A stretch of DNA of 64,000 nucleotides. It comes from Oscillospiraceae bacterium. Its GTDB lineage: Bacteria > Bacillota > Clostridia > Oscillospirales > Oscillospiraceae. Positions 42,010-55,904 of this stretch are shown here, piece by piece. The stretch spans positions 310,759-374,758 of the forward strand of contig CADCKQ010000001.1 of assembly GCA_902802045.1 (NCBI GenBank). The letters are read 5' to 3'. Both the position numbers and the translations under genes were made by a program. The first letter of the stretch is position 1, and each line of letters starts with the position of its first letter. A model generated the notes under the pieces. It did no database searches. It was not told the origin of the DNA and saw only the letters and a list, made by a program, of their open reading frames with translations.

Positions 42010-43320
42010 TTATCCGAAAAGTATCTGATTTACTATGCTCTCGAGCTGTTCCTGTTTTCCGCTGCCCGGAAGTTCGGGGGCTCCGAGGGAGTCCGCATAT
42101 TCCGCCAGTTCCTTCAAATCGGTTTCTCCGCTGCGGATCTTTGCGCCGATGCCGCTCTCATAGCTTGAATAGCGTTCTTTGACGAAGGCGTCAAGCCTTC
42201 CGTCTTCGATAAGCTCGGCCGCTTTCAGAAGGCCGAGGGCAAAGGTGTCCATACCGAGGATATAGCTTGTAAACATATCCTCGACCGTATAGCTCGGGCG
42301 GCGTGATTTGGAGTCGAAGTTGAATCCGCCGGTGAGCCCGTCTGACTTGAGCACCTCATACATGCACATGGTTGCATCATACACATTGAACGGGAACTCG
42401 TCGGTATCCCATCCGAGGAGCATATCGCCCTGGTTGGCGTCAATGCTGCCCAGCATTCCGTTTATTGCGGAAACCCGGAGATCGTGCTGGAATGTATGGC
42501 CTGCCAGTGTGGCGTGGTTTGCCTCGATGTTGAGCTTGAAGTCCTTATCGAGTCCGTACTGGCGGAGGAAGCCTATCGCAGTGGCTGCGTCAAAATCATA
42601 CTGGTGTTTCATCGGCTCTTTCGGTTTGGGCTCAATATAGAAATCACCGGTAAAGCCTATGCTGCGCCCGTAATCGATGGCCATATGCATGAGCTTCGCG
42701 ATATTCTCCTGCTCGAATTTCATGTCGGTATTGAGCAGCGTCTCATAGCCCTCACGACCGCCCCAGAAGACATAGCCGCGCCCGCCGAGTTTGACGGTCA
42801 GATCCAAGGCCTTCTTAGCCTGTGCTGCCGCAAAAGCGAATACATCGGCAGAATTGGAGGAGCCTGCGCCGTTCATAAAGCGCGGATTTGAGAACATATT
42901 GGCCGTGCCCCAAAGGCACTTGATATCGGTGCCCTTCATCTTTTCAAGGATGTAATCGCTGATCTCGTCCAGACGGCGGTTGGTCTCCTTTATATCATCC
43001 GCCTCCGGAACAAGATCCACATCATGGAAGCAGAAATAGCGGATCCCCAGCTTCTGCATGAATTCAAAGCCGGCATCGACTTTCGCTTTGGCATGCTCCA
43101 TTGTGCCTTTTACCGCACCGAAGGATTTGTCGGCGGTATCGCGCCCGAACATATCGGTTCCAGCCGCGCCAAGGTTGTGCCACCAGGCCATTGCAAAGGG
43201 CAGATGCTCCTTCATGGGCTTTCCCATAACGATCTTGTCCGGATCATAGAATTTAAACGCCAGCGGATTTGTGCTCTTCGGACCCTCATAAGGAATTGCG
43301 GGAATATTTTCAAATATCAT
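42010..43320 (-). CDS. xylA: Xylose isomerase (class II)
   Basis: [26 protein letters not shown]; 436 aa. Confidence 0.95.
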
Positions 43321-44813
43321 AATGCTTCCTCCTTGATTTCTTTAAACAGTGTTTTCATGGCAGGGTATATTTTTTTGAATTTCAGGTATTGGGTTTCATA
43401 GCGCGCGGCTGCTGCAGGATCCGGCTCTATGGTCTCGCTGACGGAAGTCAGGACTCCGGCACACTCTTCAACGCTTTTGTACTCGCCGCATCCGACCATC
43501 GCCAGCATGGCAGCGCCATAACCGCCTTCCTCTGTCTGCGGGATCTCCAGACGGATATTCAGAATATCGGCAAGGATCTTCCTCCACAGAGGAGATTTCG
43601 CGCCGCCGCCGCACAGTCTGGAGGAAACGATCGGAATTCCAAGACTCTTCGCGATCTCAAAGGAATCGCGGATAGCGAAAGCAACGCCCTCCAATACAGC
43701 CTGTACCATATCGGAACGCCCGGTATCCATCGACATTCCCACAAATGTCCCGCGGGCATCAATGTCGTTGATCGGGCTGCGCTCACCCATCAGATACGGA
43801 AGGAAAAATACGCGGTTGCGACCCAGATCTTCTTCCTTTACAGCTGCCTGTTCTGCGGCATAATCGCCTGTGTGAAGGATATCTTTGCATATCCATTTAT
43901 TGCAGCTGGCAGCCGAAAGCATGCAGCCCATCAGATGCCATCCTCCATCTGCGTGGGCAAAGGCATGCAGGGCATTGTTCGGGTCGACGCCGAATTTCTT
44001 CGACGAGATGAAGATAGTGCCTGACGTACCTAGAGAAATATTGCAGCCGCCTTCTCCTACCACTCCGGTCCCAACAGCTGCAGCCGCGTTATCTCCGGCT
44101 CCTGCCACGACCCTGCAGTCACGCGGAAGTCCCAGCGATCCGGACACAAAACCCCGGAGCGTGCCTGTGACCTCGTAGCTTTCAAAGAGCTTCGGCATCT
44201 GCTCTTCTGAAATACCGCAAATCTCCAGCATTTCCTTTGACCAGCATCTGTGTGCCACATCAAGAAGCAGCATGCCGCTGGCATCGGAATAATCACATGA
44301 GTGAACTCCGGTAAGCCGATAGTTTAAATAATCCTTTGGCAGCATGATCTTTTTGATCCGGGCAAAATTCTCCGGCTCATGCCTTTTCATCCAAAGCAAT
44401 TTAGGCGCCGTAAATCCCGCAAACGCGATATTTGCGGTGAGCTCGGAGAGCTTCTCTTTTCCTATCACGGTATTGAGCCACTCCGTCTCCTCTGCCGTAC
44501 GTCCGTCATTCCAAAGGATGGCCGGCCGGATCACGCAATCGTCTTCATCGAGCGCCACCAGACCGTGCATCTGCCCTCCGCAGCCTATTCCCCGGACCTG
44601 ATCCTTGTTGAAATTCTCGGTCAGCTCCAGAATTCCATGCTGAACGGCTTTCCACCAGTCTCTGGGATCCTGTTCCGACCACCCGGGTTTCGGAAATGAA
44701 AGGGGGTATTCTTTGGTAACACTGTTTAATATCTCTCCGCTCTCGTTTGTCAGCAGCAGCTTCACCGCTGAAGTGCCGAGGTCGATTCCAATATATAGGC
44801 TGATAGCGCCCAC
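43317..44813 (-). CDS. xylB: Xylulokinase (FGGY family)
   Basis: [11 protein letters not shown]...GWSEQDP. Four-nt overlap with xylA. Confidence 0.9.
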
Positions 44814-45172: not shown

Positions 45173-46345
45173 TCAGCTGTTCTTTTTCTTGGATACCACG
45201 TCGAAGATGACTGCGGCCAGCAGGACCAGTCCTTTGACCACCTTCTGGTAGTTGGCGTCAACGCCCATTATGCTCATGCCGATATTGATGACACCCATGA
45301 GAAGAGCACCTATAATAACGCCGGGAACAGTGCCGACTCCGCCGTAAGCGGAAGCTCCTCCGATAAAGCAGGAGCCGATGGCGTCCATCTCATAGTTCTG
45401 TCCGTAAGTCGGCTGGGCGGAGGTGAGACGCGCGATCGTCAGAATGCCGGCCAGACCGGCCAGCAGGCCCATATTTGTATAGGCAAAGAAGTATATTTTT
45501 CTGGTGTCGATTCCCGAGAGCTTGGTTGCCGTTTCGTTGCCGCCCACTGCGTACAGATAACGGCCGACTGTGGTCTTGGATGTAATATACGAGTAGATCA
45601 TGATCACCGCTACCACCCATATCAGCGCCATGGGCAGGCCCTTATATTGGGCAAGCCGCAGTGTGAAGAAAATGACTACCGCCACGATGATCACTGCCTT
45701 GATGACAGTTGCGGCAAGCGATCCTGATTCAAGGTTGGCTTTCCGGCGGGTTATCTGATTGCGGGTCGTAATAACAAGATATATTATGCAGGCCAGAATA
45801 CCCACTACAAGACAGAGAATGTTGATATTCTCACCGCCGAAGAAATCGGGAACATAACAGTTGGCACCGCCGCCAAAGATCTGAACGAATTTCTCGTTGG
45901 TCACGGCCATTGTCTTCCCCTGAAGCACCACGTTGGACAGTCCTCTGAAAATCAGCATGCCGGCAAGCGTAGTAATGAAAGGAGGAACCTTGACATAGGC
46001 GATCCAGAATGCCTGCCAGGCGCCTATCAGCAGTCCGACAACGAGCATCAGCAGGACAGCCAGCCACATATTCAGGTCCCGGTCCATCATTACAGCGCCG
46101 ACAGTGCCTACAAAGCAGACCACCGAGCCTACAGACAGGTCGATATTGCCTCCGGTGAGGATGCACATCAGCATACCTGTCGCCAATACGAAAACGTAGG
46201 CGTTCTGGGAAATAATATTAGTGATGTTCTGCGGCATCAGTATCTTGCCGTTGGTTCTCCAGGCAAAAAAAGCCGTTACCAGCACCAGGGCAATGATCAT
46301 CGTATATTTCTGAACAAAATTCAGTACTTTTGTCTTTGACGTCAT
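45173..46345 (-). CDS. xylH: Xylose / multiple-monosaccharide ABC permease (XylH/GguB-like)
   Basis: BPD_transp_2 permease, 390 aa. Four-nt overlap with xylG. Confidence 0.85.
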
Positions 46346-47901
46346 ATCTCTTTCTCCTTTTCTGCCAAATCTACTGATAGAATGCTTGCCATTATCTTCT
46401 CCTGGCTGGCCTCTTCCCTGCCGAATTCACCGACGATGCGCCCTTCAGCGAGCACGTAGATCCTGTCGCACATTCCCAGGACTTCAGGCATTTCGGAAGA
46501 GATCATGATGACTGATTTCCCCTCTGCAACCAGGTCATTGATAATGCAGTAGATTTCATATTTTGCGCCGACGTCGATACCGCGGGTCGGCTCGTCCAGA
46601 ATCAGAATGTCCGGATCTGCATACATCCACTTTGACAGCAGAACCTTCTGCTGGTTTCCGCCGGAGAGTTTCCCTACATTCTGCCGGACTGAAGGTGTTT
46701 TCGTATTGAGCTTCTGGCGGTATTTTTCTGCGACAGAAAGCTCCTTGTCTCTATCGATAACACCGCGATTGGATACACCCTTCATATTTGCAAGAGTCGT
46801 GTTGATTGTAATGGGGTTGGTCAGGATCAGTCCGCTGCCTTTGCGGTCTTCGGTAACATACGCAAGACCTGCATCGATCGCCTGACGCGGAGAGTGCAGT
46901 GTGACCTCTTTGCCATGGATCCTGATCTTACCGCTGATGTCTCTGCCATAGCTGCGGCCAAAGATTGACATGGCAAGCTCGGTACGCCCTGCTCCCATAA
47001 GGCCTGCAAAACCGACCACCTCGCCCTTATTGACATGGAATGAGACGTGGTCGATCACCTTCTTTTCCGCATAGATCGGATGGTATACATTCCAGTCTTC
47101 CACCTCCAGCGCAGGTTCTCCGATGCTTACTCCGTAGCGTTTGGGGAAGCGGTCCTCGATCTCGCGACCGACCATTCCGCGGATTATGCGCTCCTCACTC
47201 AGATCATCGACACCTTTGACCAGTGTTTCAATTGTCTTTCCGTCGCGGATTATCGTTATATCATCCGCTACATAGGATACTTCATTGATCTTGTGTGAGA
47301 TGATTATGGAAGTCAGTCCCTGCTTCTTGAATTCAAGCAGCAGATCCAGCAAAGCCTTGGAGTCCGCCTCGTTGAGAGACGAAGTAGGTTCATCCAGGAT
47401 AAGCAGGCGTGCATTTTTGGCTAGAGCTTTGGCGATCTCAACCATTTGCTGTTTGCCTACGCCGATATCCTTGATCAGAGTTTTGGAGGAATCGGTCAGT
47501 CCGACTATCTTCAGATATTTTGTTGCCTCGGCATGGGTCTTGTCCCAGTCGATGGCAAATTTTTTCCCTCGCTCGTTGCCCAGGAACATATTCTCGCCGA
47601 TGGTCATATACGGCACCAGCGCAAGTTCCTGGTGGATGATTACGATGCCCTTTTCCTCACTGTCCTTGATCTTGAAAAACTTGCAGACCTCGCCTTCATA
47701 AACGATATCCCCGGTATAACTGCCATAGGGATACAGTCCGCTGAGCACGTTCATCAGTGTTGATTTTCCTGCGCCGTTCTCGCCGACCAGCGCATGAATG
47801 CTGCCCCGCCTGACAACGAAGTTAACATTGTCCAGGGCTTTGACACCGGGGAATTCCTTGGTAATTCCCCGCATTTCCAGAATATTGTCCGATTCTGACA
47901 A
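46342..47901 (-). CDS. xylG: Xylose / multiple-monosaccharide ABC ATP-binding protein (XylG/GguA-like)
   Basis: [27 protein letters not shown] parallels E. coli XylG (YPHGSYEGEI). TTG start lies 7 nt after AGGAGG. Confidence 0.85.
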
Positions 47902-47948: not shown

Positions 47949-47977
47949 ATTCTATAAATAACCTTTTACTCTGTCAA
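47949..47977 (-). promoter_or_regulatory. Near-consensus sigma-70 promoter for xylGH-xylBA
   Basis: Minus strand reads TTGACA (47977-47972), 17 nt, TAGAAT (47954-47949), in the 99-nt AT-rich gap. Confidence 0.6.
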
Positions 47978-48000: not shown

Positions 48001-49086
48001 TCAATGCTTATTCCTATGCCTGCGCATCAATATCACGCTCTGGAGCAGAATAAACAGGCAGAGCATCGCGCCGGTAGTAATACTTTGCCACCACGGATCA
48101 CGAAGACCCGATGTGGTAACGATTGCCTTTATTGTGCTCAGTGTCAGCACACCAAAGAAAGTGCCGATCACATTACCCACTCCGCCAGTAAGCAAGGTGC
48201 CGCCGATGATCGAAGAAGCAATTGCGTTCATTTCTCCAGCAGTAGCATTTGTGGCGTTGCCAGCACCTGTATGCATCATGAACACGAAACCTGCAATCCC
48301 GCTAAGAATACCGCAGAACAAATGCGCCATGAAACGAGTTTTACGAACATTCAAACCCAGCATTAGCGCGCTTTGCCGGTTTCCTCCTACTGCATAAAAG
48401 CTTCTGCCAATCCGCATTTTTCGAAGCATGCAGAACACCAGAATTACAATCAAAATGGCAATCACTACTCCAACTTCCATCCGAGCCGGAATAATTACAC
48501 CATTTTTATTAGGAGACCCAAGCCAATTAATCTCGATTCGCTTTTGAAGGATATCCAACAAAGCCTGAGGTGCTTTCTGCGGATCGACGCTGAGAATCGT
48601 AATCATTCCGCGTGCAAAAAACATACCTGCAAGCGTAATGATAAAGGGCTGGATTTCAAGGTATGCGATCAAATAGCCTTGAACGAGTCCGAAGAGCAGA
48701 CCAATCAGCAGTGCCATTAGAGCGGCGAATACTATTCGCGAGCTGTCTGCAAGGCCGAGAGATGCCTGAAGAACACTGAAAAAGGGCATACTTCCGTTAA
48801 GAATCATGACACCAGTCATCGCAACCAATGCTGTAACGCCTGCAACCGAGATATCAATGCTTCCGGTAATCATAACAATTGTCAACCCGCAGGAGATGAT
48901 AACAAGATAGGCATTGTCATTAAGAATATCAAAGAGCATTTGCGGCTTTTTGAAGCCGCCGCCCCAAATCAATATGGCGGCCACATACATACACACAAAG
49001 ATACAGATCGTGATGGTCAGAAGCAGTTGTGTGTCTGTGATGGGCTCTCTGTGACGACGAGAAATATCTAAACCCTTTTCGTCCAT
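48001..49086 (-). CDS. Sugar ABC permease, YjfF-like
   Basis: BPD_transp_2 permease and second TMD of a YtfQRT-YjfF-type system. Visibly lower GC than the xyl genes. Confidence 0.8.
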   Translation of the reverse strand: MDEKGLDISRRHREPITDTQLLLTITICIFVCMYVAAILIWGGGFKKPQMLFDILNDNAYLVIISCGLTIVMITGSIDISVAGVTALVAMTGVMILNGSMPFFSVLQASLGLADSSRIVFAALMALLIGLLFGLVQGYLIAYLEIQPFIITLAGMFFARGMITILSVDPQKAPQALLDILQKRIEINWLGSPNKNGVIIPARMEVGVVIAILIVILVFCMLRKMRIGRSFYAVGGNRQSALMLGLNVRKTRFMAHLFCGILSGIAGFVFMMHTGAGNATNATAGEMNAIASSIIGGTLLTGGVGNVIGTFFGVLTLSTIKAIVTTSGLRDPWWQSITTGAMLCLFILLQSVILMRRHRNKH

Positions 49087-49087
49087 T

Positions 49088-50167
49088 TCATACCTCCTTT
49101 GCCAAAGCGGTTGACCGCCTGCCGCGGAGTTTTCTGCGTATACGAGCCATAGCTTCCTTCACCACGGGAGAACCCAGTACAACCAACAACACGATTACAA
49201 TTGCTTTATAAGCTTTGACATCCGTAGACGGAACCTTCATTGCATATAGTGTTATGGTCAATGCTTGAATTGCATAGGCACCCAAGACCGAACCAAGCAT
49301 TTTAAATTTCCCACCGCCCAAATTGTTTCCTCCAATGGCCACAGCCAAGATGGCATCCATTTCAATATTTAGCAGTATCGTCTCATGATTTATCAGACTC
49401 AGCCTGCTCACACCGATGACTCCTGCCACCGCACAGCACAGGCCCAGCAGTATAAATGCCAAGAGCTTTATTCCTGCAACATGGATGCCATTGAGTCTGG
49501 ATGCATTTTGGTTGATACCCACTGTCTGAATGTACAGATTCAGAGTCGTGAAACGGAACAATAATCCAAAGAAAATCGCCATCAGAATCACTATTAGAAT
49601 AGGTGTAGGCACAGGGACACCAGGAATAAAACTGCCGACGGCAGTGATAATGGGACTTGAGACAGTAGGTGTAGCACCTCCGTTAATCCAATAAGCAATA
49701 CTGCGTCCACAGGTAAACAGAATCAGAGTTGCAATCATGGGCTGGATACCAAAGGCTGACACCAGCATACCGTTAAAACATCCAAAAATCATGGCCACCA
49801 ATGAGCACAGCAGAAATGCGCCAAGTACCAGCGCCGGCGAGATCGTTCCTCCACTCTTAATAACCTTGACAAACACACTGCCGGCAATAGCAGCCAATGC
49901 GCCAACAGAAATATCCTGCCCACCAGATGCTGCGGTTACCAAAGTCATACCCATTGAAATGACGACCAATTCGGACGCACCATTTAGAATAGATATTAGG
50001 TTCCCCTGAAGAACGGGGTCTCCGTTATTATTCGTTGCAACACCTATAGAGAAAAAGCTTGGATCTCGAATTAAGTTGAAAATAAGGAGCAAAAGGATAG
50101 CAATCAGCGGTACAAGCAGTTGGGAATTATTGGTGAAAAAATTCTTCGTCGTTATTTTTTTATTCAT
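49088..50167 (-). CDS. Sugar ABC permease, YtfT-like
   Basis: BPD_transp_2 permease. Start at MNKKITT (ATG 50167), 8 nt after GAGG. Confidence 0.8.
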   Translation of the reverse strand: MNKKITTKNFFTNNSQLLVPLIAILLLLIFNLIRDPSFFSIGVATNNNGDPVLQGNLISILNGASELVVISMGMTLVTAASGGQDISVGALAAIAGSVFVKVIKSGGTISPALVLGAFLLCSLVAMIFGCFNGMLVSAFGIQPMIATLILFTCGRSIAYWINGGATPTVSSPIITAVGSFIPGVPVPTPILIVILMAIFFGLLFRFTTLNLYIQTVGINQNASRLNGIHVAGIKLLAFILLGLCCAVAGVIGVSRLSLINHETILLNIEMDAILAVAIGGNNLGGGKFKMLGSVLGAYAIQALTITLYAMKVPSTDVKAYKAIVIVLLVVLGSPVVKEAMARIRRKLRGRRSTALAKEV

Positions 50168-51671
50168 GGTCATCACCTCTCCCCACAATGGTGCTCATGA
50201 CCCGTTCCTGAGTCAAATCGGCTCCTGTGAGTTCACCAACAATATTCCTGTCTCTCATAACAATAAGTCGTGAACATGTTCGAAGCATCTCTTCAATCTC
50301 GGAAGAGATGAAAGTGACGCTCACTCCTTCTTCGGCGAGCTTCAAAACCAGACGCTGTATCTCTGCCTTAGTGCCAACATCGATTCCGCGTGTAGGTTCG
50401 TCCAAAATCAAATATTCAGGATGCGTTAGCAGCCAGCGGGCCAAGATCACCTTCTGCTGATTACCGCCGGATAAGCTCCCGACAGGAGTCTCTCTGCTTG
50501 CAGTTTTAATATTCAATGCTTTAATATACTCGTCGGCAAAAGCATCTGCGTTTTGTCGGGATATCGGGTGACCCATACCGCGCAGCACCTGCAGAGCAAG
50601 AATGATATTATCCCTAACCGAAAGATCTGCAATTATCCCGTCGCGTTTTCGATCTTCCGGTAAATACCCAATGCCATTCTTCATTGCATCGATAGGCTTT
50701 GTGATTTGAACCTTTTTCCCATGTATTCTTATGATTCCACCGGTGACTTGATCCGCTCCAAATATAGCGCGTACGCTCTCGCTGCGCCCCGAGCCAAGCA
50801 GACCGGTAAATCCGTTGACTTCCCCTTTATCAATATGAAAATCAAATTTTTTGCTCTCTGTACTGGAAAGTTCCTCAGCCTCATAAAGAACTTCAGCCTC
50901 TCCAGAAGGAGCTTTTTTGTTTTTTATTGTAGACAGTTCATCCAAGGTCTTTCCAATCATCTTGGATACCAATTCAACTTGAGGCAGCTTATCAACCTCG
51001 TATTCACCAACAAGCTCGCCGTTACGCAAAACGGTGATCTGGTCACTGACTTCGTAGACCTGCTCCAGGAAGTGAGTTACGAAGACGATGCCCACGCCAC
51101 GGGTTTTCAGATCCCGCATCAGGCGGAAAAGCATTTCCACTTCATTGTCATCCAGCGAGGAGGTCGGTTCATCGAGTATAAGCACCTTGCAGTCCGTATC
51201 CACGGCTCTTGCAATGGCAACCATCTGTTGCACTGCTAATGAGATACTGCCAAGTTGCTGCCGTGGACGAGCGGGGATGCCAAGGCCTTCCAACAGTTCA
51301 CCCGCTTTTTTCTCACGTGTTTTCCAGTCCACCGTACTACTCGTATCACGGCCGATGTACAAGTTTTCAGCAACGGTCAAATTGGGACAAAGAGAGATTT
51401 CCTGGTAGACTGTACTTATACCGTAGTTCTGGGCTTCCTGCGGAGAGCGGATGATGATCGGACTGTCATGTCCTTCAATGCGGATCTCTCCCCCATCCAT
51501 CGAATAAACACCGGTGAGCACTTTGATCAAAGTGGATTTGCCGGCACCGTTTTCACCCATCAGCGCATGGATCTTACCCCGGCGCAGTGTGAAGTCAACA
51601 TTATTTAACGCTCTTACCCCAGGAAAGGATTTGCAGATGCCACGCATAGTCAGTATGATATCGTCTTTCAC
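50160..51671 (-). CDS. Sugar ABC ATP-binding protein, YtfR-like (two cassettes)
   Basis: [20 protein letters not shown] 51671 is preferred (AAGGAG 8 nt upstream) over the longer ATG ORF. Confidence 0.85.
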   Translation of the reverse strand: MKDDIILTMRGICKSFPGVRALNNVDFTLRRGKIHALMGENGAGKSTLIKVLTGVYSMDGGEIRIEGHDSPIIIRSPQEAQNYGISTVYQEISLCPNLTVAENLYIGRDTSSTVDWKTREKKAGELLEGLGIPARPRQQLGSISLAVQQMVAIARAVDTDCKVLILDEPTSSLDDNEVEMLFRLMRDLKTRGVGIVFVTHFLEQVYEVSDQITVLRNGELVGEYEVDKLPQVELVSKMIGKTLDELSTIKNKKAPSGEAEVLYEAEELSSTESKKFDFHIDKGEVNGFTGLLGSGRSESVRAIFGADQVTGGIIRIHGKKVQITKPIDAMKNGIGYLPEDRKRDGIIADLSVRDNIILALQVLRGMGHPISRQNADAFADEYIKALNIKTASRETPVGSLSGGNQQKVILARWLLTHPEYLILDEPTRGIDVGTKAEIQRLVLKLAEEGVSVTFISSEIEEMLRTCSRLIVMRDRNIVGELTGADLTQERVMSTIVGRGDDHE

Positions 51672-51696
51672 CCACTCAACTCCTTTATAATATAAT

Positions 51697-51747
51697 CTGA
51701 AAAACGCGGTATGGACCGCGGATCTCTCCACTTGGCACCATACCGCG
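51697..51747 (-). terminator. Intercistronic hairpin plus U5; candidate partial terminator between the SBP and ATPase genes
   Basis: CGCGGTATGG (51705-51714) pairs with CCATACCGCG (51738-51747) with a 23-nt loop, followed on the minus strand by TTTTT. Confidence 0.4.
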
Positions 51748-51789: not shown

Positions 51790-53799
51790 TTATTCACCCA
51801 AGCCATAGGTATCGATGTCTTCCTGAGTTATTTCTTTTGCATCGAAGCCTTTTTCTACAGATATAATCTGCTTCATATCATTAAGCCCTTGGATTGATCC
51901 ACCGGACTCTAGAGTCTTGATCATATCACTGATGACTTGTGCCTGGAACGGGCTGCACTGTCCGTCATAGTTCCAGTTACCCGCAAGCAGCTCGCGGAGA
52001 GCCCATTTGTTGCAGTCAAAGCCCATAACGACAACCTTGCCGTCAACACCGTGAGTGATACCGTTTTCGTCAAGTGCAGCAACCGCGCCCTTGGCCATTC
52101 CGTCGTTCTCAGCATAGATAACATTAAAGTCATCTCCCGAGTTGATAACAGACTCAACAATCTTCTTGGCCTCTGCCTCATCCCATGTAGCAGTCTGCTG
52201 AGCAACTTTCTTCATTGTACCTGCTTCAAACTGTGCGTCAAGTGCACCAGTACGTCCGATCTGAGCATCGCTGCCCATAGCACCCTGGATGTGGATGACA
52301 TTGTACTCAGGCAAATTCTGAGCAAGCAACCAATTAACGGCGGTATCACCTTCGGAAGCCATGTCAGATACAACTGCAGCCTCGAAAAGGGAAGGATCGC
52401 AGTCGATCATACGGTCAAAGAGGAACACTTTGATTCCCTGATCCTGAGCATCTTTCAGAACAGCATCCCAACCTGTGGTCTCTGCAGCAGAAATCAACAA
52501 ATAATCAACTCCGTCGGTGATAAACTGACGGGCAGCGCTAAGCTGTTCATCGTTTTTAATGTTATAGAAGAACGAAGCGTCATAGCCGTTCTCTTCAGTA
52601 AATACATTCTGGAAGTCATTAACATTAGCTTCACGGTATCCGGATTCGGAAGGCGGATTGTTTACAACGCCGACCTTGATCAGTTCGCCTGCAGGAGCAG
52701 CGGGAGCAGCCGCAACTTCGCCGCCGTCTTCAACGCCGAGCTGTTCAAGCGTGTAGTAGCCGGAATCTATCAGCAGTTCTTTGTAGTTGTCTACTGTGCA
52801 GGCAACAGGCTCGCACAGGAAGCTGGGGATGATACCTGTGCCGTTGTCGTAGGTCTCGGTGTCATTTACAGGGGGTTCGGAACCCTTCATAAGTGCATCG
52901 ACCATCTCAACGACCTTGGCAGCGAGAGTACGCGTGTCTTTAAAGACGGACATGGCCTGCTTGCCCTCAATGAGGTTCTTCATAATGGCTATGTCGCAGT
53001 CCTGACCCGTGATGACCGGGTAACTGCCGGTGTAGGAAGAAGCAAGTGCGTTCTCAACGCCCAGAGCTGTTGAGTCGTTGGAAGCAAGTACTGCGTCAAG
53101 CTGCTTTCCGTCAGCATAATTGCTGGAGAGAATGTTCTCAAAACGCGCCTGAGCAGCATCTGTTGCCCAGTTGGCGGTTGCAACAACAGCCTTCTCGGTC
53201 TGGCCTGACGGGCATACAAGCTGTCCGTTGTCCAGATAGGGCTGAAGAATACTCATGGCGCCATCAAAGAAGAAGTTGATGTTGTTGTCGCCGGGGTCGC
53301 CGGTGATGAACTCGATGTTGAAGGGGCCTTTGCCTTCCTTCAGTCCGAGCGCTTCCTCAATATACTCGCCCTGCTTGGTACCGACAAGCCAGTTATCAAA
53401 GGTGGCATAGTAGGAAACGGCATCGGAGTTCATGATCAGACGGTCATAAGCGATAACGGGAATGCCGGCTTCCTTAGCCTGCGCCAAAACCGTGCCGAGC
53501 GAGTCACCGTCTATGGAGGCGATAACAAGCACTTTGCATCCGTTTGCTATCATGTTCTCGATCTGGGAGACCTGTGTGGCGATGTCATTTGCGCCAAACT
53601 GCAGGTCAACAGAATAGCCCTTTGCTTCGAGCTGAGCCTTCAGGTTTTCTCCGTCCTGATTCCAGCGCTGCAGATCCTTGGTCGGCATCGCAACACCGAC
53701 CAGATTGCCGCTGCTGGCAGGTGCAGCCTGGCTGCCGCAGGCGGCAAGCGCAAAGACCATTGCGAGAGCAAGAAGCAAAGCAAAAATCTTTTTCTTCAT
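51790..53799 (-). CDS. Two-domain sugar-binding lipoprotein: XylF/ChvE-like domain fused to a YtfQ-like domain
   Basis: Lipobox LAACG. Residues ~33-355 resemble XylF/ChvE (DLQRWNQDG..., QIENMI, VIAYDRLI, ASND). Linker is GGEVAAAPAAPAGE (about 52684-52734). Residues ~373-669 resemble YtfQ (SESGYREANV, TTGWDAVLKDAQDQGIKVFLFDR, AENDGMA). Confidence 0.85.
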   Translation of the reverse strand: MKKKIFALLLALAMVFALAACGSQAAPASSGNLVGVAMPTKDLQRWNQDGENLKAQLEAKGYSVDLQFGANDIATQVSQIENMIANGCKVLVIASIDGDSLGTVLAQAKEAGIPVIAYDRLIMNSDAVSYYATFDNWLVGTKQGEYIEEALGLKEGKGPFNIEFITGDPGDNNINFFFDGAMSILQPYLDNGQLVCPSGQTEKAVVATANWATDAAQARFENILSSNYADGKQLDAVLASNDSTALGVENALASSYTGSYPVITGQDCDIAIMKNLIEGKQAMSVFKDTRTLAAKVVEMVDALMKGSEPPVNDTETYDNGTGIIPSFLCEPVACTVDNYKELLIDSGYYTLEQLGVEDGGEVAAAPAAPAGELIKVGVVNNPPSESGYREANVNDFQNVFTEENGYDASFFYNIKNDEQLSAARQFITDGVDYLLISAAETTGWDAVLKDAQDQGIKVFLFDRMIDCDPSLFEAAVVSDMASEGDTAVNWLLAQNLPEYNVIHIQGAMGSDAQIGRTGALDAQFEAGTMKKVAQQTATWDEAEAKKIVESVINSGDDFNVIYAENDGMAKGAVAALDENGITHGVDGKVVVMGFDCNKWALRELLAGNWNYDGQCSPFQAQVISDMIKTLESGGSIQGLNDMKQIISVEKGFDAKEITQEDIDTYGLGE

Positions 53800-53869: not shown

Positions 53870-53898
53870 ATATTAGACCACAGTTGATATGAAGTCAA
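53870..53898 (-). promoter_or_regulatory. Near-consensus sigma-70 promoter of the fused-SBP operon
   Basis: Minus strand reads TTGACT (53898-53893), 17 nt, TAATAT (53875-53870). Confidence 0.6.
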
Positions 53899-54115: not shown

Positions 54116-55147
54116 ATGGCAAATATTACAGCAAAGGAAATAGCCAAAATACTGGGGCTTTCCCAGGCTGCCGTCTCCCTTGCCCTGAGGGATAAACCCG
54201 GTGTCAGTGAGGAGACGCGAAAGCTGGTTCGTGAAACGGCTGCGCGAATGGGAAAACCTGTTTCGATCGCAATGCAACAGGCTTTGACCAGCAGACGTAT
54301 CAGTTTTGTGATCTTTATGGATCATCTGGTCAGCATTGCAGAAAATACGACCTTCTCCTCCTTTTTACTCAAAGGCGCCGCGGATCGGGCTTCTTCCCTC
54401 GGTCACAGCATATCGGTCTGTTATATCAACGCGGGGGAGGCAGCTCTGCGGGACCAGCTTGAAAAAGTTCTGCCTGATACCGATGGCATTTTGTTTTTAG
54501 GCACCGACATTACCGAAAAGAGCAGAACCGAGATCAATGCGGTTTTCGCTGAGCATCCGGAAATCCCGTTAATAGTTTTGGACAGTGTGGAACCTATAGC
54601 CGGAGCAGACTATGTCTGCAATGACAATTTCGGCGGCGCGCGTATGGCAACAGAACATCTTATACAGCGCGGATGCCGAAAGATCGGTTATTTTCGCTCA
54701 AGCTTCCGAAATCAGAATTATATTGACAGACAGGAAGGTGTTGCCTGCGCTCTTCAGGACGCGGGGCTTGGCCTGTTTTGCATGATGAACACAGACGTGT
54801 CATTTGACGGAGCCTATAAAAGTACAGTTGATTTTCTGAATAACACATCTGAATTGCCGGACGGAGTATTCGCGGAAAACGACGTGGTAGCCGCTGCAGC
54901 CATCAGAGCCTGTAACTCATTTGGAATCAAGGTTCCGGAACAATTGTCTGTTATCGGTTTTGACGATACTCCAATCTGCGAGCTGTGTTCTCCTGCCTTG
55001 AGTACGGTTACCTCCCACAAGGAGCAGCTGGGAAAGATTGCAGTCGACATTCTGCTCAGACGTATGGATGATCCTGCCTCTGAGGAGAGAGCTTCAATGA
55101 AGATCTATCTGTCAACCTCTCTGCATATCCGGGACAGTGTTAAGTAG
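54116..55147 (+). CDS. LacI/GalR-family transcriptional regulator
   Basis: HTH ITAKEIAKILGLSQAAVSLALR plus a periplasmic-binding-fold effector domain. Confidence 0.9.
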   Translation: MANITAKEIAKILGLSQAAVSLALRDKPGVSEETRKLVRETAARMGKPVSIAMQQALTSRRISFVIFMDHLVSIAENTTFSSFLLKGAADRASSLGHSISVCYINAGEAALRDQLEKVLPDTDGILFLGTDITEKSRTEINAVFAEHPEIPLIVLDSVEPIAGADYVCNDNFGGARMATEHLIQRGCRKIGYFRSSFRNQNYIDRQEGVACALQDAGLGLFCMMNTDVSFDGAYKSTVDFLNNTSELPDGVFAENDVVAAAAIRACNSFGIKVPEQLSVIGFDDTPICELCSPALSTVTSHKEQLGKIAVDILLRRMDDPASEERASMKIYLSTSLHIRDSVK

Positions 55148-55268: not shown

Positions 55269-55904
55269 TCAGATATCCTTTGCTATGTCGATATTCTCGC
55301 CACTGATGCCTATCCGGGCACCTTTTGCCGCCTGCTTGGAATCCTTGTGGGCGAGAAGCCACTTGTTTCTTGCCCAGAGCAGTTTATCCTCAAGGTTGAG
55401 CTCTGTTATCTCCGGTTTTTCCGTATTTGTGCCTTCGGGAAGAACAACAAGCACATGGAAGCCCTTCTCCGGGTCTGCATGACAGGGAGCAAAGTGCAGA
55501 GTGGTCGCATAGATCTCCACCATCGTTCCCGCCGGGATCCTGAAAGCGACTGTTTTGGAAGAATCTATAATACCTTTTCTGATCTGCGACCTTTTCGCGA
55601 GAAGAAGTATAAAATCCTCTGTTCCGAGGTTTATCTCGCTGTCTCTGTGGTATTCGAAGCAGTTGAGCTTCGTATTGTGCCCGTTGCACCATCCGAGCTG
55701 AACGGGCATGCCGCCATAAAGATTTTTGGAAAACAGGTCCTTTACCGGCAGTGCTTCGAAAGACGGCTCGGAAGCGACATAGGCTGTCCCTTCTTCGGGA
55801 AGCGGGGTGGCTGCAAGCGCCTTCATAAGCTCCTGCAGATCGTAGCCCTTTACTATCCGCCCGTACTTTCTGAATTCTTTGTCATGTACGGATAAAATTT
55901 CCAT
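55269..55904 (-). CDS. DUF4867-like protein (cupin-like, function unknown)
   Basis: 211 aa. The DUF4867 assignment is from memory of MEILSVHDKEFRKYGRIV-type N-termini and is not verified. Confidence 0.5.
   Translation of the reverse strand: MEILSVHDKEFRKYGRIVKGYDLQELMKALAATPLPEEGTAYVASEPSFEALPVKDLFSKNLYGGMPVQLGWCNGHNTKLNCFEYHRDSEINLGTEDFILLLAKRSQIRKGIIDSSKTVAFRIPAGTMVEIYATTLHFAPCHADPEKGFHVLVVLPEGTNTEKPEITELNLEDKLLWARNKWLLAHKDSKQAAKGARIGISGENIDIAKDI

What the first reader, a model, noticed from the sequence alone, without database searches (positions are those of the whole stretch)
51790..53799. Single lipoprotein fusing two different sugar-binding proteins (XylF/ChvE-like plus YtfQ-like)
Seen in the sequence: one 669-aa ORF carries one lipobox (LAACG). 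It contains a complete XylF/ChvE-like type-I periplasmic binding fold (about aa 33-355), an Ala/Pro linker GGEVAAAPAAPAGE (nt ~52684-52734), and a complete YtfQ-like fold (about aa 373-669) that has no signal peptide of its own.

Established knowledge: ABC importers normally use one single-fold SBP per translocator. Tandem or fused SBPs are known but uncommon, and they are usually fused to the permease.

Inference: the protein tethers two receptors of different specificity to the membrane through one lipid anchor. It may serve the two different translocators encoded downstream.
Basis: partly seen in the sequence, partly recalled or inferred. Interest (0 to 1): 0.62.

Follow-up and report, generated by a model that had tools for sequence, protein, structure and literature searches.

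The report
One lipoprotein carrying two sugar receptors
A rumen Oscillospiraceae bacterium makes one membrane-anchored protein from two different, complete sugar-capture proteins, each followed by its own ABC transporter genes, and this is a real, selected gene whose second half and transporter are swapped as a unit between close relatives.

Summary
ORF 51790..53799(-) encodes a 669-aa lipoprotein: lipobox LAAC21, a ChvE-type module (aa 33-355), a 17-aa Ala/Pro linker, and a YtfQ/GafA-like module (aa 373-669) with no signal peptide.

It is not an artefact. The identical protein occurs in at least three independent assemblies, and at least 14 clusters at 72-86% identity keep the fusion with linkers of different length. 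Both halves are under strong purifying selection (dN/dS 0.03-0.16).

Downstream lie two translocators, YtfR/YtfT/YjfF-like and then GguA/GguB. The genome holds no other candidate receptor for either.

Sister species carry the two operons separately. The fused locus looks like a ytfQRT-yjfF-type cassette placed between chvE and gguA.

A near-conspecific MAG is 99-100% identical in the flanks. It diverges from the first codons after the linker to the gguA promoter, so the C-module and its translocator are exchanged as one unit.

The same ChvE head is also fused to a second ChvE, to CUT1, amino-acid and other binding proteins, and to a non-SBP module.

I found no paper describing free SBP-SBP lipoprotein fusions. 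I rate it a new variant of a known kind, of moderate to high interest. Ligands and docking remain inferred.

The parts
51790..53799 (-). Fused SBP gene (669 aa plus stop): lipoprotein with two binding modules
   Evidence: ORF and translation; Pfam and NCBIfam domain hits; the identical protein occurs in at least 3 independent assemblies.
53737..53799 (-). Signal peptide with lipobox LAAC (Cys21)
   Evidence: The sequence MKKKIFALLLALAMVFALAAC. The same signal-peptide type is conserved in fused and unfused ChvE homologues.
52735..53703 (-). N-module, ChvE-type multiple-monosaccharide binding fold (aa 33-355)
   Evidence: NF040907 scores 513.9 bits against a cutoff of 460. It is 70% identical to 4YS6 and 52% to ChvE 3URM. 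dN/dS is 0.03-0.10.
52684..52734 (-). Interdomain Ala/Pro linker VEDGGEVAAAPAAPAGE (aa 356-372)
   Evidence: Sequence. pLDDT is below 50 for aa 358-370. Homologues have linkers of variable length and sequence. The crossover with the sister MAG lies directly 3' of the linker.
51793..52683 (-). C-module, YtfQ/GafA-like binding fold (aa 373-669), no signal peptide
   Evidence: NF041827 scores 151.8 bits, below the cutoff of 510. PDB hits are 6HBD, 2VK2 and 5OCP. It is 86-91% identical to abundant standalone SBPs. dN/dS is 0.03-0.16 or lower.
51705..51720 (-). GC-rich stem-loop followed by a T-run just after the SBP stop; possible attenuating terminator
   Evidence: Consensus scan only. It lies inside the longest ytfR-like ORF, which argues for the later start at 51671 that gene callers used on one of the identical contigs (L058; L059 was called from 51731).
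50160..51731 (-). YtfR-like double-NBD ATPase (start at 51731 or 51671)
   Evidence: NF041861 is the best hit at 637.4 bits, below the cutoff of 850.
49088..50188 (-). YtfT-like permease
   Evidence: NF041862 is the best hit at 176.8 bits, below its cutoff; Pfam BPD_transp_2.
48001..49086 (-). YjfF-like permease
   Evidence: NF008630 is the best hit at 224.2 bits, below its cutoff; Pfam BPD_transp_2.
47949..47977 (-). Promoter-like TTGACA-17-TAGAAT in front of gguA; right edge of the exchanged cassette
   Evidence: The scan gives 11 of 12 matches. DNA identity to L061 returns to 96-100% from about 47966.
46342..47901 (-). GguA ATPase
   Evidence: NF040905 scores 836.9 bits against a cutoff of 810.
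45173..46345 (-). GguB permease
   Evidence: NF040906 scores 491 bits against a cutoff of 450.
42010..44813 (-). FGGY kinase (xylB-like) and xylose isomerase (xylA-like) downstream of gguAB
   Evidence: The gene names are my reading of the ORF translations; no family scan was run on the window's own copies. xylB/xylA-like genes at 59-97% identity follow gguAB in many related loci.
54116..55147 (+). Divergent LacI-family regulator
   Evidence: Pfam LacI plus Peripla_BP_3; NCBIfam RbsR-like, below cutoff.
53870..53898 (-). Promoter-like TTGACT-17-TAATAT upstream of the fused gene
   Evidence: Consensus scan, 9 of 12 matches; not evidence of function.

Best explanation
The gene encodes a genuine two-receptor lipoprotein.

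How it most likely works (inferred): after Sec export and lipidation at Cys21, the ChvE-type module hangs on a short tether of about 11 residues. The YtfQ/GafA-like module hangs from the C-terminus of the first on a flexible 17-residue Ala/Pro linker. Each module closes on its own monosaccharide and docks on its own translocator. The ChvE module docks on GguB2-GguA. The YtfQ-like module docks on the YtfT/YjfF-like heterodimer with the YtfR-like ATPase.

Likely ligands (inferred): pyranose pentoses and hexoses such as xylose for the N-module, and L-arabinose or a related sugar, possibly in the furanose form, for the C-module.

Origin (shown by comparison): a ytfQ'-ytfR'-ytfT'-yjfF' cassette sits between chvE and gguA. 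The signal peptide of the second SBP is replaced by a linker of the kind that normally follows the lipobox Cys.

Dynamics (shown): the C-module and its translocator are exchanged as one unit by recombination, with one crossover at the linker/module boundary and the other in front of gguA.

Benefit (inferred): the fusion gives the second receptor a lipid anchor and fixed 1:1 co-expression and co-localisation with the first. Many of its standalone orthologues carry only a signal-peptidase-I type signal.
For: Anatomy:
- One ORF, one lipobox and two complete folds.
- AF2 gives two confident domains joined by a disordered linker. Foldseek matches each half to single SBPs.

The fusion is real:
- The identical protein occurs in at least 3 independent assemblies.
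- ChvE-YtfQ' fusions occur in at least 14 clusters at 90% identity (72-86% identical to the query), one with 146 members, with linkers of differing length.
- dN/dS is 0.03-0.06 for the N-half and 0.13-0.16 for the C-half against other fusions. Against standalone orthologues it is 0.06-0.10 for the N-half and 0.03 or lower for the C-half.

Pairing of modules and translocators:
- Sister species have separate ytfQ'RT-yjfF' operons and separate chvE-gguAB-xylB operons at 80-89% identity.
- GguA and GguB pass their NCBIfam equivalog cutoffs, and so does the ChvE module.
- The genome has only four Peripla_BP_4 SBP modules. Apart from the two fused modules, one is the MglB-like SBP of the neighbouring mglAC-like operon and the fourth lies outside the window and was not characterised. 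A search with the whole fused protein found no second ChvE-like or YtfQ-like copy at E <= 1e-20.

The cassette is one unit:
- Window versus MAG RGIG2615 is 99-100% identical in DNA across the N-half and linker. Identity then falls to 63-66% in the C-half and to 70% or lower or unalignable in the permeases. It returns to 96-100% at the gguA promoter.
- The crossover lies right after ...GELIKVG.

Ligand-site motifs:
- The N-half keeps the ChvE motifs.
- The C-half keeps SESGxR, DR, GR, ND and D.

Ligand hint: standalone orthologues 87-88% identical to the C-half are followed by araA, an FGGY kinase and transketolase. This matches the arabinose-linked GafA clade described in PMC10191376.

Anchor logic: of the 92 standalone orthologues where the mature N-terminus could be located, 54 have AXA-type signals and 31 have a lipobox plus a long Ala/Pro linker.
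Against:
- The C-half, YtfR, YtfT and YjfF all score below their NCBIfam equivalog cutoffs.
- Three positions that I infer to line the GafA sugar pocket differ: W to Y, F to W and E to Q. The ligand is therefore uncertain.
- This genome (95.75% complete) shows no AraA, no GH51 and no convincing GH43, which weakens the arabinofuranose idea for this strain.
- Related fusions do not all have two translocators. ChvE-ChvE and MglB'-YtfQ' fusions are followed by one. A fused module could therefore in principle share a translocator.
- The same ChvE head is fused to unrelated partners, including a non-SBP module. Any adaptive story specific to this sugar pair may be over-read.
Confidence: 0.72

Rival explanations
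1. The fusion is real but selectively neutral. It would be a by-product of frequent recombination at Ala/Pro linker-coding DNA among lipoprotein genes of this genus. Each module would work exactly as its unfused orthologue does, and the covalent link would bring no benefit.
For: - The ChvE head with the tail ...SGYYTFEQLGIDxxAAPA is joined to many unrelated partners: a second ChvE, two YtfQ' types, CUT1, SBP_bac_3, SBP_bac_8, SBP_bac_11, and a module without a Pfam hit that sits next to apbE-rnf.
- Fused and unfused forms are interleaved on the ChvE tree.
- Signal peptides and post-lipobox linkers are near-identical among non-homologous lipoproteins here.
Against: - The fused state persists across species at 72-86% identity with strong purifying selection on both halves.
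- The same pair, ChvE plus YtfQ', is joined in both orders in other lineages, and MglB' plus YtfQ' also occurs. This suggests selection for the pairing.
- In the fused form the second module has no other route to the membrane surface.
Confidence: 0.3
2. Only one module is a transport receptor. The other would act as a sensor or regulator, or both modules would feed the same translocator, as in tandem-SBD importers.
For: - ChvE of Agrobacterium doubles as a sensor partner (established knowledge; review PMC8050422 listed).
- ChvE-ChvE and MglB'-YtfQ' fusions are followed by a single translocator.
- LRR_5-headed double-SBP proteins lie away from any transporter genes.
Against: - Two complete translocators follow this gene, and neither has another cognate SBP in the genome.
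- The C-module co-varies and co-transfers with ytfR/ytfT/yjfF, not with gguAB.
- No sensor kinase is adjacent in the window. The standalone operon in L047 has its own separate SBP-like sensor next to a kinase.
Confidence: 0.1
3. The protein is made as a fusion but is cut in the linker after export, which releases a free YtfQ-like SBP.
For: The linker is disordered and exposed. Many standalone orthologues appear to be secreted through a signal-peptidase-I site rather than lipid-anchored.
Against: - No signal-peptidase context (hydrophobic h-region) precedes the linker.
- Ala/Pro-rich linkers are typically protease-resistant (established knowledge).
- Linker sequences vary freely among homologues and show no conserved cleavage motif.
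- A free SBP would be lost from a monoderm cell.
Confidence: 0.06
4. The fusion is an assembly or sequencing artefact. In that case a lost stop codon or a chimeric join has merged two separate genes.
For: The genome is a metagenome-assembled genome, and read-level evidence could not be obtained.
Against: - The same 669-aa product comes from at least 3 independent assemblies made with different assemblers.
- A further MAG shares the linker nucleotide for nucleotide except one base.
- Dozens of homologous in-frame fusions exist.
- The second half lacks any start codon with a signal peptide, and the standalone form begins exactly where the linker ends.
Confidence: 0.02

Closest known systems
ChvE-GguAB multiple-monosaccharide ABC importer (Agrobacterium ChvE, PDB 3URM; Clostridium phytofermentans Cphy_1585, PDB 4YS6)
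   Same: The N-module passes the ChvE equivalog model. It is 52% identical to 3URM and 70% to 4YS6, with TMt 0.91. GguA and GguB pass their equivalog models and lie in the same locus.
   Different: Here ChvE is not a stand-alone protein. Its C-terminus carries a second complete SBP, and a foreign translocator is encoded between chvE and gguA.
YtfQRT-YjfF / GafABCD furanose ABC importer (E. coli YtfQ 2VK2; Shewanella GafA 5OCP; M. smegmatis MSMEG_1712 6HBD)
   Same: The fold matches (TMt 0.77-0.81). The gene order is the same: SBP, double-NBD ATPase, two different permeases. Orthologues of the C-module sit next to araA, like the arabinose-linked GafA clade (PMC10191376).
   Different: Identity is only 26-28%, and all four components score below the NCBIfam cutoffs. 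Three positions that I infer to line the sugar pocket differ from the residues that are identical in the three solved GafA proteins. The module has no signal peptide of its own.
Tandem substrate-binding domains of GlnPQ-type importers, and the single fused SBD of OpuA
   Same: As in GlnPQ, two binding domains of different specificity sit in tandem in one polypeptide, joined by flexible linkers outside the membrane (PMC8025302, listed).
   Different: In GlnPQ and OpuA the SBDs are fused to the permease and feed that one translocator. Here the two modules form a free lipoprotein, belong to different SBP subfamilies, and are each followed by a separate translocator.
Homotandem ChvE/XylF-type lipoproteins (earlier scan note e1-2305861 on Anaerolineae; P0002-P0028 and P0056-P0059 here)
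   Same: Both have a lipobox, a ChvE module, an Ala/Pro linker and a second cluster-B module. In this genus the linker prefix (...EQLGIDGEAAPA) is shared with the ChvE-YtfQ' fusions.
   Different: The homotandems repeat the same receptor and are followed by one GguAB. The window's protein joins two different receptor types and is followed by two translocators.

Membership tests
ChvE (NF040907, multiple monosaccharide ABC transporter SBP) | Score above the curated equivalog cutoff over the full model | tested here: met
   513.9 bits against a cutoff of 460; aa 34-354 cover model positions 1-324.
ChvE (NF040907, multiple monosaccharide ABC transporter SBP) | Cognate GguA ATPase and GguB permease encoded with it | tested here: met
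   GguA scores 836.9 (cutoff 810) and GguB 491 (cutoff 450) at 45173..47901. They are separated from chvE by the inserted cassette. Unfused relatives have chvE-gguA-gguB contiguous.
ChvE (NF040907, multiple monosaccharide ABC transporter SBP) | Cluster-B type-I periplasmic binding fold like 3URM | tested here: met
   The AF2 model against 3URM and 4YS6 gives TMt 0.91 and rmsd 2.3-2.4 A.
ChvE (NF040907, multiple monosaccharide ABC transporter SBP) | Binds several monosaccharides (xylose, arabinose, glucose, galactose) | not testable with these tools
   Only motif conservation against 3URM and 4YS6 could be seen.
XylF (TIGR02634 / NF007680, D-xylose SBP) | Score above the curated cutoff | tested here: not met
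   TIGR02634 scores 274.9 against 389.55, and NF007680 scores 238.6 against 504. The module is ChvE-type, not XylF.
YtfQ/GafA furanose-binding protein (NF041827) | Score above the curated equivalog cutoff | tested here: not met
   151.8 bits against a cutoff of 510. It is the best-scoring family for the C-half, so the module is 'YtfQ-like' only.
YtfQ/GafA furanose-binding protein (NF041827) | Partner genes in the order ATPase, YtfT-type permease, YjfF-type permease | tested here: inconclusive
   The order and the best hits agree, but the scores are below the cutoffs (637 against 850, 177 against 535, 224 against 363).
YtfQ/GafA furanose-binding protein (NF041827) | Binding-site residues identical to those of the solved GafA proteins (stated in PMC10191376) | tested here: not met
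   In the alignment to 6HBD, 2VK2 and 5OCP, SESGWR becomes SESGYR, GDF becomes ATW, and VE(L/C) becomes GQC, while DR, R, ND and D are kept. Which columns contact the sugar is my inference from the ribose-binding-protein family.
YtfQ/GafA furanose-binding protein (NF041827) | Genetic linkage to L-arabinose or galactose catabolism | tested here: inconclusive
   Standalone orthologues (87-88% identical) are followed by araA, an FGGY kinase and transketolase in L047 and L055. The window's own genome shows no AraA.
Tandem-SBD ABC importers (GlnPQ type) | Binding domains covalently fused to the transmembrane domain | tested here: not met
   The 669-aa protein has no membrane segment beyond its signal peptide. 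The permeases are separate ORFs.
Tandem-SBD ABC importers (GlnPQ type) | Two binding domains in tandem in one chain, joined by flexible linkers | tested here: met
Bacterial lipoprotein (Lgt/Lsp substrate) | Positively charged n-region, hydrophobic h-region and lipobox [LVI][ASTVI][GAS]C | tested here: met
   MKKK-IFALLLALAMVFA-LAAC21. Lipidation itself is not testable here.

The most novel reading that the evidence does not exclude
In rumen Oscillospiraceae of this genus, the ChvE lipoprotein may serve as a general plug-in anchor. Diverse extracytoplasmic modules would be attached to its C-terminal Ala/Pro linker and exchanged by recombination together with their downstream genes. These modules include other sugar receptors, oligosaccharide, amino-acid and other SBP_bac_8/SBP_bac_11-type binding proteins (ligands unassigned), and even a non-SBP module encoded next to apbE-rnf. 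In the window's case the covalent link would physically couple two ABC importers at one site. Occupancy or docking of one receptor could then influence delivery by the other. That would be a heterologous, free-lipoprotein counterpart of the cooperative tandem domains of GlnPQ.
Probability: 0.2. Interest if true: 0.78.

Novelty: new variant of a known kind. Interest (0 to 1): 0.6.

Why it matters
ABC importers are usually described as one free receptor per translocator. The known exceptions have the binding domains fused to the permease.

This locus differs from those exceptions in four ways.
- It is a free lipoprotein that joins two receptor types.
- Each receptor has its own translocator encoded behind it.
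- It is conserved under selection.
- It shows a clear natural history: separate operons in sister species, then a nested fused locus, then exchange of the second receptor with its translocator as a unit.

It offers natural constructs (fused, unfused, and two alternative C-cassettes in near-identical backgrounds). These could be used to ask whether tethering receptors together changes uptake kinetics, stoichiometry or substrate co-utilisation of plant-derived pentoses in the rumen. It also shows how modular extracellular receptors evolve. The same ChvE head on many partners hints at a wider, undescribed class of chimeric surface lipoproteins.

Tried and rejected
I substituted independent assemblies and a nucleotide alignment to another MAG.
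- Literature: four full-text searches for free SBP-SBP or tandem SBP lipoproteins returned only permease-fused tandem domains (GlnPQ, OpuA) or irrelevant hits. Two 'fusion of two' hits referred to the double NBD of CUT2 ATPases. Absence from this library does not prove absence from the literature.
- The ChvE structure paper, requested under the PMC id I recalled, was not held. ChvE contact residues were therefore not taken from a paper.
- XylF membership was rejected on score.
- The arabinofuranose-scavenging idea for this particular strain was weakened: no AraA, no GH51 and no convincing GH43 in the genome.
- I asked whether all fused ChvE heads form one clade. The FastTree tree is poorly resolved at this depth and interleaves fused and single forms. 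A single origin is neither shown nor excluded.
- Pfam found nothing for the roughly 300-aa 'YKLGMG...' partner module.
Full report
**1. What is in the sequence**

The minus-strand ORF 51790..53799 is open for 669 codons. It starts with a classical Gram-positive lipoprotein signal, MKKKIFALLLALAMVFALAAC21G.

- NCBIfam places aa 34-354 in ChvE, the multiple-monosaccharide ABC-transporter binding protein (513.9 bits, cutoff 460).
- It does not place them in XylF (274.9 bits, cutoff 389.55).
- Aa 383-612 score best with YtfQ, but well below the cutoff (151.8 bits, cutoff 510).
- Pfam finds two Peripla_BP_4 stretches.
- Between the modules lies VEDGGEVAAAPAAPAGE (aa 356-372, nt 52684-52734).

AlphaFold2, run on a 36-sequence alignment, gives two confident bodies (mean pLDDT 84.4). 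Only the post-lipobox tether (aa 22-29) and the linker (aa 358-370) fall below pLDDT 50. The pTM of 0.51 is what two independently oriented domains give.

Foldseek against the PDB matches each half to single-domain binding proteins only:
- N-half: 4YS6 (70% identity, TMt 0.91) and ChvE 3URM (52%, TMt 0.91).
- C-half: the furanose binders 6HBD/6HBM, 5OCP and 2VK2 (26-28% identity, TMt 0.77-0.81).

No chain among the top 50 covers both halves.

**2. Surroundings**

The genes downstream on the same strand, in order:
- a YtfR-like double-NBD ATPase (50160..51731)
- a YtfT-like permease (49088..50188)
- a YjfF-like permease (48001..49086)
- GguA (46342..47901; 836.9 bits, cutoff 810)
- GguB (45173..46345; 491 bits, cutoff 450)
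- xylB-like and xylA-like genes (named from the ORF translations, not from a family scan)

A LacI-family regulator is divergent upstream. The layout is therefore chvE::ytfQ' - ytfR' - ytfT' - yjfF' - gguA - gguB. The receptor of the outer system is fused to the receptor of the inner one.

A stem-loop with a T-run follows the SBP stop codon. A near-consensus promoter-like site (TTGACA-17-TAGAAT, 47977..47949) precedes gguA. Both come from consensus scans only.

The whole genome is 2.03 Mb and 95.75% complete. It holds only four Peripla_BP_4 SBP modules plus the LacI regulator. Two are the fused modules. One is the MglB-like SBP of the neighbouring mglAC-like operon. The fourth lies outside the window and was not characterised. 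A search with the whole fused protein found no second ChvE-like or YtfQ-like copy at E <= 1e-20. So neither GguAB nor the YtfRT/YjfF-like translocator has another evident cognate receptor.

**3. Is the fusion real?**

Other evidence points the same way.

- The identical 669-aa product is encoded on 4 contigs from at least 3 separate ENA assemblies made with different assemblers.
- A further goat-omasum MAG shares the linker nucleotide for nucleotide except one base.
- A search of 5.8 billion proteins finds the same ChvE-YtfQ' architecture in at least 14 clusters at 90% identity (72-86% identical to the query). One cluster has 146 members. Their linkers differ in length and sequence but all stay in frame.
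- Both halves are under strong purifying selection. Against other fusions, dN/dS is 0.03-0.06 for the N-half and 0.13-0.16 for the C-half. Against standalone orthologues it is 0.06-0.10 for the N-half and 0.03 or lower for the C-half.

An artefact is very unlikely.

**4. Where it came from**

Record titles place the organism among rumen Oscillospiraceae MAGs; several close relatives are labelled Candidatus Limivicinus.

In 101 genomes of the same genus:
- Most species carry the two systems as separate operons.
- The operon ytfQ'-ytfR'-ytfT'-yjfF' has an SBP 87-90% identical to the C-half.
- The operon chvE-gguA-gguB-xylB has a ChvE 85-89% identical to the N-half. That ChvE ends at ...SGYYTMEQIEG-stop and is followed by a terminator-like hairpin.
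- In one species the two operons are divergent neighbours (L069).

The standalone form of the C-module is the common state, with more than 100 clusters at 86-91% identity. Its mature part begins ...(A)DD-LIKVGVV, exactly where the linker ends in the fusion.

The N-terminal targeting segment of that SBP is itself variable. Of the 92 orthologues where the mature N-terminus could be located:
- 54 have a signal-peptidase-I type signal (AFA|ADD).
- 31 have a lipobox followed by a long Ala/Pro tract that looks just like the interdomain linker.

My inference is that the linker is a relic of such a post-lipobox tether.

**5. The second module and its translocator move as one unit**

I compared the window with MAG RGIG2615 (L061) at the DNA level.

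| Region | DNA identity to L061 |
|---|---|
| Upstream genes, N-half and linker | 99-100% |
| C-half | 63-66% |
| ytfR' | 60-93% |
| Permeases | 70% or lower, or unalignable |
| From about 47966, at the gguA promoter | 96-100% |

- At base level the two are identical up to ...GGCGAACTGATCAAGGTCGG (GELIKVG) and diverge from the next codon.
- dS is 0.05 for the N-half and 1.7 for the C-half.
- L061 and G351/RUG608 carry a second cassette type ('B', IKVGIINLDPSESGYRQ..., about 65% identical to the window's C-half). The window carries type 'A'.

The receptor module and its translocator are therefore inherited and exchanged together, while the ChvE module stays with gguAB. This is the pattern expected if each module works with its own translocator.

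**6. A wider pattern**

The same ChvE head, with the tail ...SGYYTFEQLGIDxxAAPA..., is fused to many partners in this genus:
- a second ChvE, followed by a single GguAB
- a CUT1-type oligosaccharide SBP, followed by two BPD_transp_1 permeases and a GH3, with gguAB divergent
- an amino-acid SBP (SBP_bac_3)
- SBP_bac_8 and SBP_bac_11 types
- an internally duplicated module of about 300 aa with no Pfam hit, lying just upstream of apbE-rnfCDGEA

Among the 80 best GTDB loci, 11 are fused. Their ChvE heads are 85-99% identical to the window's N-half in the BLAST census, and all 49 loci below 80% identity are unfused.

Other observations:
- In the same family, one genome (G131) anchors ChvE through three SLH domains. 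In metagenome proteins of unknown lineage, ChvE and YtfQ' modules follow an LRR_5 head, in both orders (ChvE-YtfQ' and YtfQ'-ChvE).
- MglB-like-YtfQ' fusions also exist.
- A search of 1.84 billion cluster representatives shows many ChvE-like or YtfQ-like modules at the C-terminal end of proteins of 500-1700 aa.
- The ChvE tree interleaves fused and single forms and is poorly resolved, so the number of origins is open.
I saw near-identical internal copies here too (P0002, P0007, P0055, P0056).

**7. Likely function**

Shown:
- The anatomy and the conservation of the fusion.
- The pairing of modules with translocators by synteny and co-transfer.

Inferred:
- Lipidation at Cys21.
- Independent Venus-flytrap closure of each module.
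- Docking of ChvE on GguB2-GguA and of the YtfQ-like module on YtfT/YjfF-YtfR.

For ligands, the N-half keeps the ChvE and Cphy_1585 motifs, and xylB/xylA-like genes follow. Xylose and related pyranoses are therefore the best guess.

The C-half keeps the core motifs SESGxR, DR, GR, ND and D. It differs from the three solved GafA proteins at three positions that I infer to be pocket positions (W to Y, F to W, E to Q). Drousiotis et al. state that the binding sites of those three proteins are identical (PMC10191376).

Its standalone orthologues (87-88% identical) are followed by araA, an FGGY kinase and transketolase. In L047 the operon is preceded by an AraC-type response regulator, a histidine kinase and an SBP-like sensor. 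L-arabinose, possibly the furanose form as in the arabinose-linked GafA clade, is the best guess.

This genome shows no AraA, no GH51 and no convincing GH43, so the ligand guess is weak for this strain.

Possible benefits of the tether are a lipid anchor for a receptor that is often not lipid-anchored, fixed 1:1 co-expression, and co-localisation of two importers. All of these are inferences. A neutral origin through linker-mediated recombination remains a serious alternative.

**8. Comparison with what is known, and novelty**

Tandem binding domains are well studied where they are fused to the permease and feed that one translocator, as in GlnPQ (OpuA carries a single fused domain) (PMC8025302). 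Here no membrane domain is attached, the two modules belong to different SBP subfamilies, and two translocators follow.

Four full-text searches found no description of free heterologous SBP-SBP lipoproteins. Such domain architectures do exist unannotated in databases. I therefore rate this a new variant of a known kind.

Interest is moderate to high. It is a clean natural case, with informative sister genomes, of receptor fusion and cassette exchange, and it points to a broader family of ChvE-headed chimeras.

Noticed in passing
Proteins P0064, P0066, P0069, P0075, P0076, P0081, P0082; locus L143:1648-3702: The ChvE head is fused to an internally duplicated module of about 300 aa ('YKLGMGVSL...AGNAQVDAT...') that has no Pfam hit. 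In L143 this gene lies directly upstream of apbE and rnfCDGEA. The partner may therefore be an extracytoplasmic protein linked to the Rnf complex rather than a transport receptor.
   Followed up: partly
Proteins P0077, P0072 (also L062), P0080, P0068/P0073 (L004): The same ChvE head is fused to an amino-acid SBP (SBP_bac_3), to SBP_bac_8 and SBP_bac_11 types, and to a CUT1 oligosaccharide SBP. In L004 the CUT1 partner is followed by two BPD_transp_1 permeases and a GH3, while gguAB lies divergently upstream.
   Followed up: partly
L053:10457-12832(-) and L054:5644-8124(+) (genome G131, same family): ChvE-type modules sit at the C-terminus of 791-aa and 826-aa proteins behind three S-layer homology (SLH) domains. 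This is a cell-wall anchor in place of a lipid anchor.
   Followed up: no
P0074 (L145) and P0086/P0087 (L144): BspA-type LRR_5 heads carry ChvE plus YtfQ-like modules in both orders. Neither gene is next to ABC translocator genes; L144 has GGDEF/EAL and thioredoxin neighbours. These may be surface sugar-binding proteins with a non-transport role.
   Followed up: partly
window 55269-55904(-); loci L050, L052, L069, L073, L081, L082 and many more: DUF4867 follows the FGGY kinase in most chvE-gguAB loci that lack xylA. In the window it lies upstream, in an operon with a DUF4430 lipoprotein and a small membrane protein. It is a candidate pentose isomerase or epimerase, but this is untested.
   Followed up: no
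Standalone orthologues of the C-half, P0123-P0241; L046, L047, L055: Mature parts are 86-91% identical, but the N-terminal targeting segments are swapped. About 54 have a signal-peptidase-I type signal (AFA|ADD) and about 31 have a lipobox plus a long Ala/Pro tract. This is odd for a receptor of a monoderm cell.
   Followed up: partly
window 50160-51731(-): The start of the YtfR-like ATPase is ambiguous. The longest ORF starts at 51731 and overlaps a stem-loop with a T-run at 51720..51705. One gene call on an identical contig starts at the equivalent of 51671 (503 aa).
   Followed up: partly
Whole genome G000: There is no AraA_N, no GH51 C-domain and no convincing GH43 hit, although the closest standalone orthologues of the C-module are embedded in araA clusters. 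Either the gene lies in the missing 4% of the genome or arabinose is not the ligand or use in this strain.
   Followed up: partly
P0002, P0007, P0009, P0036, P0055, P0056 (ChvE-ChvE tandems): The two ChvE copies inside one protein are each other's nearest relatives, with branch lengths of 0.00-0.06. This fits repeated recent duplication or gene conversion, as an earlier scan note reported for Anaerolineae.
   Followed up: partly
L141:29-1960: An MglB-like plus YtfQ-like fused lipoprotein (643 aa) is followed by one ATPase and only one permease. It recalls the co-regulated galactopyranose (Mgl) and galactofuranose (Ytf) pair of E. coli.
   Followed up: no
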